Below, one piece after another: positions 18,901-24,900 of a stretch of 25,614 bases of DNA. The position numbers were made by a program. The stretch is taken from the IMG/VR virus record IMGVR_UViG_2671180631_000002; one strand, written 5' to 3'. The stretch is from a virus (lineage: Duplodnaviria > Heunggongvirae > Uroviricota > Caudoviricetes). The number at the start of each line of letters is the position of its first letter. The first letter of the stretch is position 1.

Positions 18901-21900
18901 ACCGTAACAGCGGATGACGGCAGTGAGCGGCTGGTCAGCACGGCCCGGACGACGGAAACCACTTACCGCTTCACACAACTGGCGCTGGGGAACTACAGGC
19001 TGACAGTCCGGGCAGTAAATGCGTGGGGGCAGCAGGGCGATCCGGCGTCGGTATCGTTCCGGATTGCCGCACCGGCAGCGCTGTCGCGGATTGAGCTGAC
19101 GCCGGGCTATTTTCAGATAACCGCCACGCCGCATCTTGCGGTTTATGATCCGACGGTACAGTTTGAGTTCTGGTTCTCGGAAAAGCGGATTGCGGATATC
19201 AGGCAGGTTGAAACCAGCGCGCGTTATCTTGGTACGGCACTGTACTGGATAGCCGCCAGTATCAATATCAAACCGGGCCATGATTATTACTTTTATATCC
19301 GCAGTGTGAACACCGTTGGCAAATCGGCATTCGTGGAGGCTGTTGGTCAGCCGAGTGATGATGCATCCGGTTATCTGGATTTTTTCAAAGGCGAGATAGG
19401 GAAAACCCATCTGGCTCAGGAGCTGTGGACGCAGATTGATAACGGTCAGCTTGCGCCTGACCTGGCTGAAATCAGGACGTCCATTACGGATGTCAGCAAT
19501 GAAATCACGCAGACCGTCAATAAGAAACTGGAAGACCAGAGTGCGGCAATTCAGCAGATACAGAAGGTTCAGGTTGATACAAATAATAACCTGAACAGCA
19601 TGTGGGCTGTGAAGCTGCAGCAGATGCAGGACGGACGCCTTTATATCGCGGGTATTGGTGCCGGTATTGAGAACACCCCTGACGGCATGCAGAGTCAGGT
19701 GCTGCTGGCGGCGGACAGGATTGCGATGGTTAATCCTGCGAATGGCAACACAAAACCGATGTTTGTTGGTCAGGGCGATCAGATATTCATGAACGACGTG
19801 TTCCTGAAACGCCTGACGGCCCCCACCATTACCAGCGGTGGAAATCCATCGGCATTTTCCCTGACTCCGGACGGAAAGCTGACCGCTAAAAATGCGGATA
19901 TCAGTGGCAGTGTGAATGCGAACGCCGGGACGCTCAACAATGTCACGGTAAATGAAAACTGTACGATTAAGGGCATGCTGGAGGCGACTCAGGTCAGAGG
20001 TGACTTCGTTAAAGCTGTATCCAAATCATTTCCGAAACAGGCTGGTACGTGGGGTAACACGGAAACACCAAACGGGACGGTTACAGTCACCATAAGCGAT
20101 GATCATAACTTTGACCGCCAGATTATTATTCCGCCCATTATTTTTAACGGTATAGCGTATGACGATCCGGGGAGCGGAAATAACCCAGGAGGCACGCGAT
20201 ACACGGGTTATGGTTTTGAAGTTCGCAAAAACGGCGTATTAATCGCATCCAGAGAAACTAAAGGTGCCATTCCCGGTAGTTACAGTGCAGTTATTGATAT
20301 GCCTAGTGGTGGTGGTAGCGTCACTCTGGAGTTTAAGATTTTCCAGAAAGGCAATCAGGGGGCAGGCAATATCACCGACTGTACGGTGATTGTGACCAAA
20401 AAAGCGGCTTCCGGCATCAGTATTCGTTGAAATATTTATAACCCCAATAAATGGCGTCAGGAATGACGCCTTTTTTATTGCAGAAAAGCGAGAGGTAATT
20501 ATGCGTAAAGTTTGTGCAGCCATTTTGTCCGCAGCCATTTGCCTGGCCGTATCCGGTGCGCCTGCATGGGCGTCTGAACATCAGTCCACGCTGAGCGCGG
20601 GGTATCTTCATGCCCGGACCAACGTTCCCGGCAGTGATGATCTGAACGGGATTAACGTGAAATACCGTTATGAGTTTACGGATACGCTGGGGCTGGTGAC
20701 GTCATTCAGCTATGCAGGAGACAAGAATCGCCAGCTGACCCGTTACAGCGATACCCGCTGGCATGAAGATTCCGTTCGTAACCGCTGGTTCAGCGTAATG
20801 GCGGGGCCGTCTGTGCGCGTGAATGAATGGTTCAGCGCGTATGCGATGGCGGGTGTGGCTTACAGCCGTGTGTCGACTTTTTCCGGGGATTATATCCGCG
20901 TAACTGACAATAAGGGGAAAACGCACGATGTGCTGACCGGAAGTGATGACGGTCGCCACAGCAACACGTCTCTGGCGCACTGACGGTTTCATCGTGGGTG
21001 TCGGTTATAAATTCTGATTAGCCAGGTAACACAGTGTTATGACAGCCCGCCGGTTCAGGCGGGCTTTTTTGTGGGGTGAATATGGCAGTAAAGATTTCAG
21101 GTGTACTGAAAGACGGCACAGGAAAACCGGTACAGAACTGCACAATCCAGCTGAAAGCAAAACGTAACAGCACCACGGTGGTGGTGAACACGCTGGCCTC
21201 AGAAAATCCGGATGAAGCCGGGCGTTACAGCATGGACGTTGAGTACGGTCAGTACAGCGTTATTCTGTTGGTGGAAGGATTCCCGCCGTCACATGCCGGG
21301 ACCATCACCGTGTATGAAGATTCCCGACCCGGTACGCTGAATGATTTTCTCGGTGCCATGACGGAGGATGATGCCCGTCCGGAGGCACTGCGCCGTTTTG
21401 AGCTGATGGTGGAAGAGGTGGCGCGTAACGCGTCCGCGGTGGCACAGAACACGGCAGCCGCGAAGAAATCAGCCAGCGATGCCAGCACATCAGCCCGTGA
21501 GGCGGCAACCCATGCGACTGATGCTGCAGATTCAGCACGTGCAGCCAGCACGTCAGCCGGACAGGCCGCTTCGTCGGCTCAGTCAGCGTCTTCCAGCGCA
21601 GGAACGGCATCAACAAAGGCCACTGAAGCCTCAAAAAGTGCTGCCGCTGCAGAGTCCTCAAAAAGCGCGGCGGCTACCAGTGCCGGTGCGGCGAAAACGT
21701 TAGAAACGAATGCGGCAGCGTCACAACAATCAGCAGCCACTTCTGCATCCACCGCGACCACGAAAGCGTCAGAAGCTGCCACCTCAGCCCGGGATGCGTC
21801 GGCTTCAAAAGAGGCGGCAAAATCATCAGAAACGAACGCATCATCAAGCGCCAGTAGCGCAGCTTCCTCGGCGACGGCGGCTGCAAATTCTGCGAAGGCG

Positions 21901-24900
21901 GCCAAAACGTCCGAGACGAACGCCAGGTCTTCTGAAACGGCAGCGGGACAGAGTGCCTCAGCTGCGGCAGGCTCAAAAACAGCGGCTGCGTCGTCTGCCA
22001 GCGCCGCGTCAACAAGTGCCGGGCAGGCCTCAGCCAGTGCCACCGCCGCCGGAAAATCGGCAGAAAGCGCCGCATCATCCGCTTCAACAGCCACAACGAA
22101 GGCTGGCGAAGCCACTGAGCAGGCCACGGCAGCAGCGAGGTCAGCTTCCGCAGCGAAGACATCCGAAACGAACGCGAAAGCGTCGGAAACCCGTGCAGAA
22201 TCCTCAAAAACGGCTGCCGCATCGTCCGCCAGTTCGGCGGCGTCATCGGCATCATCGGCGTCTGCTTCAAAAGATGAGGCGACCAGACAGGCGTCAGCAG
22301 CGAAGGGCAGCGCCACGACGGCATCCACGAAGGCGACAGAGGCTGCTGGTAGTGCGACGGCAGCAGCTCAGAGCNNNNNNNNNNNNNNNNNNNNNNNNNN
22401 NNNNNNNNNNNNNNNNNNNNNNNNNNNNNNNNNNNNNNNNNNNNNNNNNNNNNNNNNNNNNNNNNNNNNNNNNNNNNNNNNNNNNNNNNNNNNNNNNNNN
22501 NNNNNNNNNNNNNNNNNNNNNNNNNNNNNNNNNNNNNNNNNNNNNNNNNNNNNNNNNNNNNNNNNNNNNNNNNNNNNNNNNNNNNNNNNNNNNNNNNNNN
22601 NNNNNNNNNNNNNNNNNNNNNNNNNNNNNNNNNNNNNNNNNNNNNNNNNNNNNNNNNNGCGCTGAGACAGCGGCAAAACGGGCAGAGGATATTGCATCCG
22701 CCGTGGCGCTTGAGGATGCGAGCACGACGAAAAAGGGGATAGTACAGCTCAGCAGTGCGACCAACAGCACTTCCGAGTCACAGGCGGCAACGCCAAAAGC
22801 CGTTAAGGCCGCGTATGACCTGGCTAACGGGAAATACACCGCACAGGATGCAACGACAGCACAGAAAGGGATAATCCAGCTAAGCAGCGCGACCAACAGC
22901 ACGTCTGAAACGCTGGCGGCAACGCCAAAGGCAGTAAAAGCAGCCAATGACAATGCTGAGAAACGTCTGCAGAAAGATCAGAACGGTGCGGATATCCCTG
23001 GCAAAGACACCTTTACGAAAAATATTGGTGCCTGCCGTGCCTTCGGTGGGTCAGTAAGCACAACAACAGGAAACTGGACGACTGCACAGTTTATCGAGTG
23101 GCTGGATTCTCAGGGAGCATTTAACCATCCATACTGGATGTGCAAGGGTTCCTGGTCTTATGGCAATAATAAAATCATTACTGATACTGGCTGCGGTAAT
23201 ATTCATCTCGCCGGAGCTGTCATTGAAGTAATGGGGATAAAGTCAGCGATGACGATCCGCATTACCACTCCGACCACATCCAGCGGTGGCGGAACAACCA
23301 ACGCCCAGTTTACCTATATTAATCACGGAACAGATTATTCACCTGGCTGGCGAAGGGACTATAACTCCAGAAATAAGCCAACGGCATCAGAGATCGGGGC
23401 GCTACCGTCAGGTGGAACAGCAGTATCATCAGTTAATCTGGCTTCAAAAGGTCGGGTAGCCGCGCTGACAGACAATACGCAGGGGGCAGCAGGTCTTGAG
23501 TTATACGAGGTGTATAACAACGGATATCCAACAGCGTATGGAAATATCATTCACCTGAAAGGGATGACAGCCGTTGGCGAAGGTGAGTTACTCATCGGCT
23601 GGAGTGGTACAAGCGGTGCTCATGCTCCGGCATTTATTCGTTCACGACGGGATACGACCGACGCAAACTGGTCGCCGTGGGCGCAGCTTTACACCTCGGC
23701 TCATCCTCCTGCAGAGTTTTATCCAGTCGGTGCACCAATCCCGTGGCCATCAGATACCGTTCCGTCTGGTTATGCCCTGATGCAGGGGCAGACTTTTGAC
23801 AAATCTGCTTACCCGAAACTTGCAGCCGCTTATCCGTCAGGCGTGATCCCTGATATGCGTGGCTGGACGATTAAGGGCAAGCCCGCCAGTGGTCGTGCCG
23901 TATTGTCTCAGGAACAGGATGGCATTAAATCGCACACCCACAGCGCCAGCGCATCCAGTACGGATTTGGGGACGAAAACCACATCGTCGTTTGATTACGG
24001 CACTAAATCCACGAATAACACCGGGGCGCATACGCACAGTCTGAGCGGCTCTACAAGTTCAGCTGGGGCCCACCAACATAGTCAGACTGGGCCCAGAACG
24101 AATAGCGGGAGTCAACCTACTGGAATGTTTCCGGCAGGGAGTACTCAAGTTAGCGGGACTAATCAGGTTGGTATCAGTGGCTCATTAACCAGTGGCACCT
24201 CCCAATGGGTAGGTAAATCATCTTCAGAAGGAAACCATACACACTCACTGTCCGGCACAGCAGCATCTGCGGGTGCACACGCGCATACTGTCGGTATTGG
24301 TGCTCATACGCACTCTGTTGCGATTGGTTCACATGGACACACCATCACCGTTAACGCTGCTGGTAACGCGGAAAACACCGTCAAAAACATCGCATTTAAC
24401 TATATTGTGAGGCTCGCATAATGGCATTCAGAATGAGTGAACAAGCACGGACCATAAAAATTTATAACCTGCTGGCCGGAACTAATGAATTTATTGGTGA
24501 AGGTGACGCATATATTCCGCCTCATACAGGTCTGCCTNNNNNNNNNNNNNNNNNNNNNNNNNNNNNNNNNNNNNNNNNNNNNNNNNNNNNNNAACAAAAA
24601 ACAGCCTGATGCAGGTAGCCAGTGAGCATATAGCGCCGCTTCAGGATGCTGTGGATCTGGAGATCGCAACGGAGAAAGAAACCTTGTTGCTGGAAGCTTG
24701 GAAAAAGTATCGGGTGTTGCTGAACCGTGTTGATACATCAACTGCACCGGATATTGAATGGCCAGTAGCACCTATAGGGTAAATTCGTAATGATTACCTA
24801 AATACGTTATTCTTTTGTTAAAAAAGTGATTTTGCTATAGGTAGGGAGTATGTTCTTGGATTAAGAATAAAAAATCGCCATGAAAGAGCTTCATGGCGAG

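What the first reader, a model, noticed from the sequence alone, without database searches (positions are those of the whole stretch)
21460..22374. Expanded low-complexity tandem repeat region in the side tail fibre
About 300 residues upstream of the gap are Ala/Ser/Thr-rich imperfect repeats (AAKTSETNA-like) encoded by nucleotide-level tandem repeats. This makes stf about 1100 codons, against about 774 for lambda Stf from memory. Such repeats are prone to slippage and may vary fibre length.
Basis: partly seen in the sequence, partly recalled or inferred. Interest (0 to 1): 0.4.

Follow-up and report, generated by a model that had tools for sequence, protein, structure and literature searches.

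The report
Long coiled-coil rod of side tail fibre
The Ala/Ser/Thr-rich stretch is the already described three-stranded coiled-coil rod of a lambda-like prophage side tail fibre, here in its common long form (50 seven-residue turns, 15 more than phage lambda); it is not a slippage-prone DNA tandem repeat, so the finding is ordinary.

Summary
The composition claim holds: residues 127-431 of Stf (window 21460-22374) are 75% Ala+Ser+Thr. The repeat unit is a heptad, A-x-x-S-A-x-x. It runs without a phase break for 46 heptads up to the N run, and for 50 heptads in a 99.8-100% identical closed contig.

The DNA claim does not hold. Tandem Repeats Finder sees only two 2-copy microrepeats, the 21-nt units are about 44% identical, and the longest exact repeat is 11 nt.

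The 284-N run stands for 28 nt, so Stf is 1027 aa, not about 1100. Ur-lambda Stf is 774 aa.

Only 105 of the 253 extra residues lie in the rod. They form one in-register block of 15 heptads (21994-22308). The other 148 are a second fibre repeat and a Mu S-like module further along the fibre.

The rod is the known PCoil, or proximal coiled-coil, domain (Ghosh 2012; Yu 2025). The long form is common: the 315-nt block occurs in 3,660 of 5,426 complete E. coli genomes, and 79 of 82 loci from the closest-relative scans (81 of them with a 98-100% identical N-domain) have the same rod length.

Other length classes differ by whole heptads, through deletions between short similar motifs. Slippage-like micro-indels are rare (3 of 82).

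The parts
21082..22374 (+). stf, 5' part (residues 1-431), ending at the N run
   Evidence: ATG at 21082. The translation begins MAVKISGVLKDG.... 96-98% nt identity to annotated 'prophage tail fiber N-terminal domain-containing protein' genes that follow gpJ and lom. 100% identical at protein level to L043.
21082..21483 (+). PfN / phage_tail_N domain (residues 1-134). Residues 1-94 match the collar domain that attaches the fibre to the tail.
   Evidence: Pfam PF08400, E=3.3e-72, profile positions 1-134 of 134. PDB 9e7m/9mgh chain 'Tail fiber protein' covers residues 1-94, E=1.3e-51. These entries are the Ur-lambda tail tip and Stf collar.
21418..22374 (+). Sequenced part of the coiled-coil rod (PCoil / proximal coiled coil): residues 113-431, 46 uninterrupted heptads A-x-x-S-A-x-x
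   Evidence: Heptad table and periodicity statistics. AlphaFold2 monomer model is helical throughout except for one low-confidence break, mean pLDDT 77. The homologous region is an experimentally supported trimeric coiled coil.
21994..22308 (+). The block of 15 heptads (105 aa, 315 nt) that lambda Stf lacks. It lies wholly upstream of the N run.
   Evidence: Global alignment with lambda shows one contiguous 105-residue gap and otherwise collinear sequence. blastn offset is 315 nt. The block is present in 3,660 of 5,426 complete E. coli genomes and in 21 phage records. It is not a recent duplication: its best in-register match elsewhere in the rod is 52% at nt level against a 45% background.
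22375..22658 (.). Run of 284 N. Its length is not the true length: it stands for 28 nt (AAAAGTACGGCGGAATCTGCAGCAACGC, residues 432-441, KSTAESAATR) in the closed near-identical contig.
   Evidence: The two flanks are out of frame across 284 nt. The flanks lie 28 nt apart in L002, L003, L124 and L043.
22659..24421 (+). stf, 3' part (codons in frame from 22661; stop at 24419-24421). It holds the last three rod heptads, two Phage_fiber_2 repeats, a Mu S-like middle module, a collar domain and a T4 gp37 / lambda-like tip.
   Evidence: Translation. Pfam PF03406 x2 and PF07484. PDB 8ju3 (Mu S), E=1.5e-85, and 2xgf (T4 gp37 tip), E=6e-84. Comparison of the distal parts with Ur-lambda.
22661..22723 (+). 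Last three rod heptads after the gap ([21 protein letters not shown]; residues 442-462)
   Evidence: Heptad register continues across the filled gap in L043 and L002, giving 350 aa = exactly 50 heptads.
21814..21839 (+). AAKSSETNA-coding motif copy. It is the left junction of the 16-heptad deletion that gives the 243-class rod; its partner lies at 22150-22175.
   Evidence: blastn breakpoints overlap by 26 nt. The two copies are 21/26 identical and share the exact 11-mer GAAACGAACGC. They also appear as the repeat finder families D1/D2.
22150..22175 (+). AAKTSETNA-coding motif copy, right junction of the 16-heptad deletion
22069..22082 (+). Left junction motif (GCCGCATCATCCGC) of the 7-heptad deletion that gives the 306-class rod; its partner lies at 22216-22229 (13/14 identical)
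22238..22259 (+). 9-nt microrepeat (CGGCATCAT x2.4, encoding SSASSASSAS). One related locus (L024) lacks one 9-nt unit.
   Evidence: TRF. The 9-nt deletion in L024 is at window 22243.
21629..21675 (+). Two 85%-identical copies spaced 27 nt apart (SKSAAAAES / SKSAAATSA). One related locus (L082) has a third copy.
   Evidence: the repeat finder family D6. The 27-nt tandem insertion in L082 is at window 21629.

Best explanation
The region encodes the proximal rod of a lambdoid prophage side tail fibre (Stf). The rod is a parallel, three-stranded alpha-helical coiled coil built from 50 uninterrupted heptads A-x-x-S-A-x-x (residues 113-462). Small Ala and Ser residues fill the core positions, and there are almost no large hydrophobic residues.

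The rod links the N-terminal collar domain, which clamps the fibre onto the tail tip, to the hinge and the distal receptor-binding part. It therefore works as a stiff spacer that sets how far the receptor-binding tip reaches: by calculation about 52 nm, against about 36 nm for lambda's 35 heptads.

The low complexity is a property of the protein. At DNA level the heptads are written with mixed codons and are only about 44% identical, so the array is genetically stable. Length changes are rare. Most are whole-heptad deletions or exchanges between short similar motifs such as the AK(T/S)SETN-coding copies.

The window carries the common long form of the rod. The N run next to it is an assembly or masking gap that hides 28 nt.
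For: Shown with tools:
- Identity of the gene and its setting after J and lom and before tfa.
- Uninterrupted heptad pattern with very strong periodicity statistics.
- Rod composition: 2 Leu, 1 Ile, 3 Val, and no Pro or aromatic residues in 350 aa.
- AlphaFold2 model: helices 7-198 and 209-339 of the 340 residues modelled, pLDDT 89-95 over the first ~150.
- No tandem array at DNA level.
- Gap closed by the 99.8-100% identical contig L043, giving an intact 1027-aa reading frame.
- 79 of 82 loci have the same rod length although the set holds 74 distinct rod DNA sequences.
- The 315-nt block is widespread at unchanged length.
- The 243, 250, 306 and 355 length classes differ by 7, 15 or 16 heptads. 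Two junctions lie in short similar motifs, 21/26 and 13/14 nt identical.

From the literature:
- In Ur-lambda gpStf, residues 102-393 are the 'proximal coiled-coil domain' of a trimer. Residues 1-91 form the collar and residues 394-422 a hinge. This rests on cryo-EM, cryo-ET and AlphaFold3 (PMC12617516).
- The homologous Ala/Ser-rich 'PCoil' region of E. coli prophage fibre proteins is alpha-helical and trimeric by CD, SEC-MALLS and rotary-shadowing EM. Its length differences are multiples of seven (PMC3368898).

Inferred only: the lengths in nm (1.485 A per residue) and the spacer or reach role.
Against: - The trimeric state and the straightness of this particular rod were not tested. The AlphaFold2 run was a monomer. 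It shows a low-confidence break (pLDDT 42-44) at Stf residues ~290-300, which could be a real flexible point rather than an artefact.
- The 28-nt fill is taken from a near-identical contig, not from the window's own genome, so the true sequence under the Ns is unverified.
- Three of 82 related loci carry small in-frame indels at local microrepeats (+12, -9, +27 nt). These are out of heptad phase, so slippage is not entirely absent.
- No functional data link rod length to adsorption.
Confidence: 0.9

Rival explanations
1. One reading: a slippage-prone nucleotide tandem repeat (a VNTR or contingency-type locus) whose copy number changes readily and so varies fibre length.
For: - Length classes exist in the family.
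- Three of 82 close loci have micro-indels at a 9-nt, a 12-nt and a 27-nt local repeat.
- There is a weak 21-nt periodicity in the DNA.
Against: - TRF finds no array in the window or in the closed sequence.
- Adjacent 21-nt units are 46% identical on average (maximum 67%), and the longest exact repeat is 11 nt.
- 79 of 82 loci with 74 distinct DNA sequences keep the same length.
- The 315-nt block has its full length in 18 of the 21 phage genomes that carry most of it.
- The large length differences are single blocks of 7-16 heptads with distinct junctions, not stepwise changes in unit number.
Confidence: 0.04
2. An assembly artefact: the apparent expansion next to the gap comes from mis-joined or duplicated reads in a repetitive gene present in several copies.
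For: - The gene is a frequent assembly breakpoint. Most database homologues are labelled 'partial', and a genome has a median of 3 matching places.
- The three N runs in the window do not reflect true lengths.
Against: - The extra 315-nt block lies entirely in sequenced DNA upstream of the Ns.
- It is found at 95-99.7% identity in thousands of complete genomes and in isolated phages.
- L043 matches the window at 99.8-100% on both sides of the gap.
Confidence: 0.02
3. An intrinsically disordered low-complexity linker, acting as a flexible tether rather than a folded rod.
For: - Extreme Ala/Ser/Thr bias with almost no hydrophobic residues.
- The authors of the PCoil paper call the sequence unusual for a coiled coil.
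Against: - A strict heptad phase is kept over 350 residues.
- Almost all length variants keep that phase.
- AlphaFold2 predicts helix.
- CD, SEC-MALLS and EM show a trimeric helical PCoil, and a trimeric bundle and straight proximal arm are seen in Ur-lambda.
Confidence: 0.03

Closest known systems
[quoted passage not shown]
   Same: - Same gene position (J, lom, stf, tfa).
- The N-terminal domain and the flanking rod sequence are collinear and about 87-88% identical.
- Same heptad pattern, and the same motif ([12 protein letters not shown]...[15 protein letters not shown]) where the rod ends.
- gp37-like tip about 71% identical.
   Different: - The rod has 50 heptads instead of 35, through one extra block of 15 heptads.
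- There are two Phage_fiber_2 repeats instead of one.
- A 247-aa Mu S-like middle module replaces lambda residues 399-529.
- Total length is 1027 aa against 774 aa.
PCoil domain of E. coli prophage collagen-like fibre proteins EPclA-D (Ghosh et al., PLoS One 2012, PMC3368898)
   Same: - Follows the same PfN (PF08400) domain.
- Ala/Ser-rich with a seven-residue period.
[quoted passage not shown]
- Length differences between alleles are multiples of seven.
   Different: - The PCoil studied there spans roughly residues 101-245 and measures about 16 nm; this rod has 350 residues.
- No collagen (Gly-X-Y) region follows here: there is no run of four or more G-x-x triplets.
Long-rod Stf alleles of isolated lambdoid phages (PhiR68_2, PhiR26_1, mEp460, ev099, 2H10, Turner, Kati, and others) and of E. 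coli prophages
   Same: The rod has the same length and is 95-99% identical, including the 315-nt block. L043 is essentially the same gene.
   Different: Only point substitutions and different distal, receptor-binding modules. Total Stf length ranges from 791 to 1176 aa while the rod stays constant.
Classical DNA tandem-repeat (VNTR or contingency) loci
   Same: A periodic coding sequence whose length varies between alleles.
   Different: There are no near-identical head-to-tail DNA units, and copy number hardly varies among close relatives.

Membership tests
Lambda-type side tail fibre (Stf; PF08400-containing prophage tail fibre) | N-terminal PfN / phage_tail_N collar domain | tested here: met
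   PF08400, E=3.3e-72, full profile 1-134. PDB 9e7m/9mgh Stf collar chain covers residues 1-94, E=1.3e-51.
Lambda-type side tail fibre (Stf; PF08400-containing prophage tail fibre) | Gene lies downstream of J and lom and directly upstream of the tail fibre assembly gene tfa, within a lambdoid tail module | tested here: met
   The window aligns along its length with annotated lambdoid prophages running from terminase to tape measure, gpJ, Lom, fibre and Tfa. tfa starts at the stf stop codon.
Lambda-type side tail fibre (Stf; PF08400-containing prophage tail fibre) | Distal fibre repeats, a collar domain and a gp37-like receptor-binding tip | tested here: met
   PF03406 x2 and PF07484. 2xgf T4 gp37 tip, E=6e-84. 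70.6% identity to Ur-lambda residues 530-774.
Lambda-type side tail fibre (Stf; PF08400-containing prophage tail fibre) | Intact reading frame, and assembly as trimers on the virion | not testable with these tools
   The frame cannot be read across the 284 N. It is intact (1027 aa) in the 99.8-100% identical L043. Assembly needs experiment.
PCoil / proximal trimeric coiled coil of prophage fibres | Ala/Ser-rich sequence with a sustained seven-residue periodicity directly after PfN | tested here: met
   50 heptads. Position 1 is Ala in 47/50, position 4 is Ser in 36/50, position 5 is Ala in 35/50. Period-7 z=19 and period-3.5 z=38.6.
PCoil / proximal trimeric coiled coil of prophage fibres | Alpha-helical conformation | tested here: met
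   By prediction only. AlphaFold2 gives helices 7-198 and 209-339 of 340 residues, mean pLDDT 77. Experimental support exists for homologues only.
PCoil / proximal trimeric coiled coil of prophage fibres | Parallel trimer | not testable with these tools
   No multimer prediction was available. The trimer is shown for EPclA PfN-PCoil by SEC-MALLS and for Ur-lambda by cryo-EM.
PCoil / proximal trimeric coiled coil of prophage fibres | Length differences between alleles are multiples of seven residues | tested here: met
   Classes 243, 250, 306 and 355 differ by 7, 49, 105 or 112 aa. Exceptions are three micro-indels of +4, -3 and +9 aa among 82 loci and one fusion variant (the 350 class) whose junction lies beyond the rod.
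Slippage-prone DNA tandem repeat (VNTR or contingency locus) | Head-to-tail, near-identical repeat units at nucleotide level | tested here: not met
   TRF finds no array. Adjacent units are 46% identical, and the longest exact repeat is 11 nt.
Slippage-prone DNA tandem repeat (VNTR or contingency locus) | Copy-number polymorphism among close relatives | tested here: not met
   79 of 82 loci have the same length. The 315-nt block has its full length in 18 of the 21 phage records that carry most of it.
Prophage collagen-like fibre proteins (EPcl) | Gly-X-Y collagen triple-helix region after PCoil | tested here: not met
   No run of four or more G-x-x triplets anywhere in the 1027-aa protein.

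The most novel reading that the evidence does not exclude
The discrete rod-length classes (34, 35, 43 and 50 heptads) might be adaptive 'reach' variants. On this reading they arise by in-register recombination at the conserved AK(T/S)SETN-coding motifs and are matched to the thickness of the host's O-antigen or capsule layer. The same motifs would also serve as crossover points for swapping distal fibre modules, as in L056. The rare out-of-phase variants (+4, -3, +9 aa) would then introduce stutters or beta-layer-like kinks that alter fibre geometry.
Probability: 0.15. Interest if true: 0.4.

Novelty: already known. Interest (0 to 1): 0.12.

Why it matters
The finding matters little as a discovery. 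The domain, its heptad nature, its trimeric coiled-coil structure and the rule that lengths differ by multiples of seven are all published. This exact allele sits in about two thirds of complete E. coli genomes.

It has three practical uses:
1. N-run lengths in this window must not be used to estimate gene length.
2. Low-complexity protein repeats should not be equated with slippage-prone DNA.
3. For fibre engineering, the natural alleles show that the proximal rod tolerates changes of 7-16 heptads, and they show where the natural junctions lie.

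Tried and rejected
- **Higher-order repeat or recent internal duplication as the source of the 15-heptad block: rejected.** In-register comparison of the block with every other position in the rod gives at most 52% nt and 54% aa identity, against a background of about 45%. No heptad lag stands out. My first attempt was out of register and is void.
- **N run as a length-faithful mask: rejected.** It is out of frame, and it stands for 28 nt in relatives against 284 N.
- **AlphaFold2 as evidence for the trimer: not usable.** Only a monomer could be run. The single helix break at Stf residues ~290-300 has pLDDT 42-44 and is probably a fold-back artefact; Yu et al. report the same problem with full-length AlphaFold3 models.
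- **Fold search on the model: not run.** A long single helix would match any coiled coil.
- **Polarity of the difference from lambda (insertion or deletion): unresolved.** The lambda junction shows only 7/11 nt similarity. More distant homologues have rods of 3-48 heptads that cannot be aligned reliably.
- **Protein database hits:** these were dominated by contig-end fragments labelled 'partial', so I used loci from IMG/VR and complete genomes for the length statistics instead.

Full report
**What is in the window**

The window is the structural arm of a lambdoid E. coli prophage. It runs from terminase through portal, capsid, tail and tape measure genes to J, lom, stf and tfa.

The finding lies in stf, which starts at ATG 21082 (MAVKISGVLKDG...). 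The window holds three N runs: 17399-17695, 22375-22658 and 24538-24592. The second cuts stf into a 431-codon 5' part (21082-22374) and a 586-codon 3' part (in frame from 22661, stop at 24419-24421). The two parts are out of frame across the 284 N.

**The gap and the true gene length**

In closed relatives the two edges of the gap lie only 28 nt apart. This holds for L002 and L003, L124 and L043.

- L043 is an IMG/VR contig that matches the window at 99.8-100% identity from 18271 to 25579.
- It supplies the missing 28 nt, which encode KSTAESAATR.
- It gives an intact Stf of 1027 aa. The N-terminal 431 aa are identical to the window's, and the C-terminal 586 aa differ at one residue.

The other N runs are equally unreliable: 297 N stand for about 27 nt, and 55 N for about 275 nt. 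The recalled 774 aa for Ur-lambda Stf is correct.

**Check of the observation**

Residues 127-431 are 75% Ala+Ser+Thr, so the composition claim holds.

The repeat is a heptad, not a nine-residue unit. When the sequence is written in sevens from residue 113, every line reads A-x-x-S-A-x-x, with no phase shift before the gap. In the closed sequence this continues for exactly 50 heptads, residues 113-462.

- Position 1 is Ala in 44/46 heptads of the window, position 4 is Ser in 36/46, and position 5 is Ala in 32/45.
- Ala periodicity gives z=19 at period 7 and z=38.6 at period 3.5 against shuffles.
A fifth, weaker copy (AKASETR) directly follows the fourth.

**The DNA level**

The claim of nucleotide-level tandem repeats fails.

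- Tandem Repeats Finder at the lowest allowed score reports only a 13-nt x2.1 and a 9-nt x2.4 microrepeat, in the window and in the closed gene.
- The repeat finder returns families that are only 60-87% identical. Their spacings are mostly multiples of 21 nt.
- The 21-nt units are on average 44% identical to each other. Neighbouring units average 46%, with a maximum of 67%. No two 105-nt blocks exceed 58%.
- The longest exact direct repeat in the 1050-nt rod is 11 nt.
- The near-invariant Ala at position 1 is written with all four codons: GCG 18, GCC 12, GCA 11, GCT 6.
- The only DNA signal is a weak lag-21 autocorrelation (0.455 against 0.372 +/- 0.013), which follows from the protein pattern.

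**What the region is**

Pfam places PF08400 (phage_tail_N) on residues 1-134. Two Phage_fiber_2 repeats and a collar domain lie after the gap. The PDB search hits the Ur-lambda Stf collar (9e7m/9mgh, residues 1-94), Mu fibre protein S (8ju3) and the T4 gp37 tip (2xgf).

Two papers describe the Ala/Ser-rich region itself.

- Yu et al. [quoted passage not shown] Each fibre is a trimer. 9E7M and 9MGH are their depositions.
- Ghosh et al. 2012 named the same low-complexity region of E. coli prophage fibre proteins 'PCoil'. They noted its loose Ala-X-X-Ala/Ser-X-X-Ser heptad. [quoted passage not shown] They also observed that PCoil lengths differ by multiples of seven.

My AlphaFold2 monomer model of residues 92-431 is helical throughout, with mean pLDDT 77 and values of 89-95 over the first ~150 residues. 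The one exception is a low-confidence break at Stf residues ~290-300.

**Comparison with lambda**

The window's rod and lambda's are collinear and about 88% identical, except for one contiguous gap of 105 residues in lambda. That gap equals 15 heptads, or 315 nt, at window 21994-22308. It is in frame and in heptad register, and it lies entirely in sequenced DNA.

The block is not a recent duplication of neighbouring heptads.

Of the 253 residues by which this Stf exceeds lambda's, 105 are in the rod. The remaining 148 lie further along the fibre:

- a second Phage_fiber_2 repeat adds 44 aa;
- a 247-aa Mu S-like module replaces lambda residues 399-529, adding 116 aa;
- small indels in the tip remove 12 aa.

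At 1.485 A per residue, the rod would be about 52 nm long against about 36 nm in lambda. This is a calculation, not a measurement.

**Is the length polymorphic?**

Within the window's own lineage it hardly varies.

- Of 82 measurable loci from the scans for closest relatives (81 of them with an N-domain 98-100% identical to the window's), 79 have the same anchor-to-anchor distance of 355 aa. The set holds 74 distinct rod DNA sequences, most 90-100% identical to the window's. Total Stf length meanwhile ranges from 791 to 1176 aa, because the distal modules differ.
- The 315-nt block is present at 80% coverage or more in 3,660 of 5,426 complete E. coli genomes.
- It has its full 315 nt in 18 of the 21 isolated phage genomes that carry most of it. 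Two more lack only 1-3 terminal bases and one covers 90%.

The three exceptions are small in-frame indels at local microrepeats:

| Locus | Change | Position in window |
|---|---|---|
| L017 | +12 nt | 21737 |
| L024 | -9 nt, inside the 9-nt TRF repeat | 22243 |
| L082 | +27 nt, a third copy of the unit spaced 27 nt apart | 21629 |

These are the only slippage-like events seen, and all three break the heptad phase.

**Other length classes**

Across more distant alleles, discrete classes exist: 243, 250 (lambda), 306 and 355 aa between the anchors.

- The 243 class lacks 16 heptads. The deletion lies between two AK(T/S)SETN-coding copies (21814-21839 and 22150-22175) that are 21/26 nt identical.
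- The 306 class lacks 7 heptads. The deletion lies between GCCGCATC(A/G)TCCGC motifs that are 13/14 nt identical.
- The lambda junction shows no clear microhomology.

The 243 class keeps part of the block that lambda lacks but has lost heptads that lambda retains. The 306 class is likewise a nested deletion. The long form is therefore the likely parent of these two. The direction of the difference from lambda is unresolved.

Family-wide, among representatives clustered at 50% identity, uninterrupted heptad runs range from 3 to 48. The window's class is at the top of that range.

**Verdict**

The feature is real as a periodic, low-complexity protein region, and it is longer than in lambda. It is the known PCoil / proximal coiled-coil rod in its common long form.

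It is not encoded by a DNA tandem repeat, and it is essentially constant in length among close relatives. It accounts for under half of the size difference from lambda.

Mechanistically it is best read as a stiff trimeric spacer that sets the reach of the receptor-binding tip. Its length changes rarely, through whole-heptad recombination between short similar motifs. Interest is low.

Noticed in passing
window 20501-21017 (junction at 20972-20977): lom carries an 83-nt deletion between two CTGGCG direct repeats, relative to the intact 600-nt lom of relatives. This shifts the frame and ends the ORF at 20983 (160 aa instead of 199). The same deletion is present in the near-identical contig L043, so it is probably real rather than a sequencing error.
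   Followed up: partly
window 17399-17695 and 24538-24592: The other two N runs also do not reflect true lengths. 297 N inside J stand for about 27 nt in relatives, which is why J appears to be 1255 aa. 55 N inside tfa stand for about 275 nt. All three gaps sit in genes that recur in several prophages per genome.
   Followed up: partly
L087-L104 and other genome-contig loci: Lambda PaPa-type stf (frameshifted orf-401, 401 aa, rod class 250) turns up on low-coverage contigs of about 48.5 kb or on small fragments in assemblies of unrelated bacteria. Examples are Leeuwenhoekiella, Pseudomonas, Shewanella, Desulfosporosinus, Oceanobacillus, Kitasatospora and Bradyrhizobium. This looks like laboratory lambda DNA contaminating public assemblies.
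   Followed up: no
L056 (stf from 5001), rod heptads 24-33: In this locus the rod is identical to the window type up to the AKTSETN heptad 24. It then switches to a different run of AK(K/N/S/A)SE(T/A)(N/A)-rich heptads and an unrelated distal domain. The conserved motif may therefore also serve as a crossover point for exchanging fibre modules.
   Followed up: partly
L082 (+27 nt at window-equivalent 21629), L017 (+12 nt at 21737), L024 (-9 nt at 22243): These rare in-frame indels break the heptad phase by +9, +4 and -3 residues. +4 and -3 are classical coiled-coil 'stutters'. +9 equals 7+2, and the abstract of the alpha/beta coiled-coil paper (PMC4786415) reports that inserting two residues into a heptad repeat produces a new type of fibre. 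Whether these prophage alleles are functional is unknown.
   Followed up: partly
window 21579-22328 (minus strand) and 21674-22324 (minus strand): Long ORFs of 249 and 216 aa run antisense to the rod. Two of the three antisense frames, and one alternative sense frame, have only 1-2 stop codons over the 1050-nt rod because of the GCN/TCN-rich periodic composition. These are very likely spurious, like lambda's historical 'orf206b' annotation on the same region.
   Followed up: partly
NZ_CP159644.1 1947315-1947629 and NZ_CP159641.1 772840-773154: The best E. coli matches to the 315-nt rod block (99.7% identity) lie under a CDS annotated 'phage terminase large subunit family protein'. This looks like an annotation or gene-fusion oddity.
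   Followed up: no
window 21041-21071: A GC-rich hairpin followed by a T run (CAGCCCGCCGGTTCAGGCGGGCTTTTTT) sits between lom and stf, about 10 nt before the stf start. It reads like an intrinsic terminator. This is from reading the sequence only; I did not run the terminator scan.
   Followed up: no
AlphaFold2 model mfde527952e3a, model residues 194-210 (Stf residues ~285-301): The only break in the predicted helix (pLDDT 42-44) falls at the Gly-containing heptads AGQSASA AAGSKTA, just upstream of the point where the lambda rod and the long rod diverge. It is probably a monomer fold-back artefact, but a real flexible point is not excluded.
   Followed up: no
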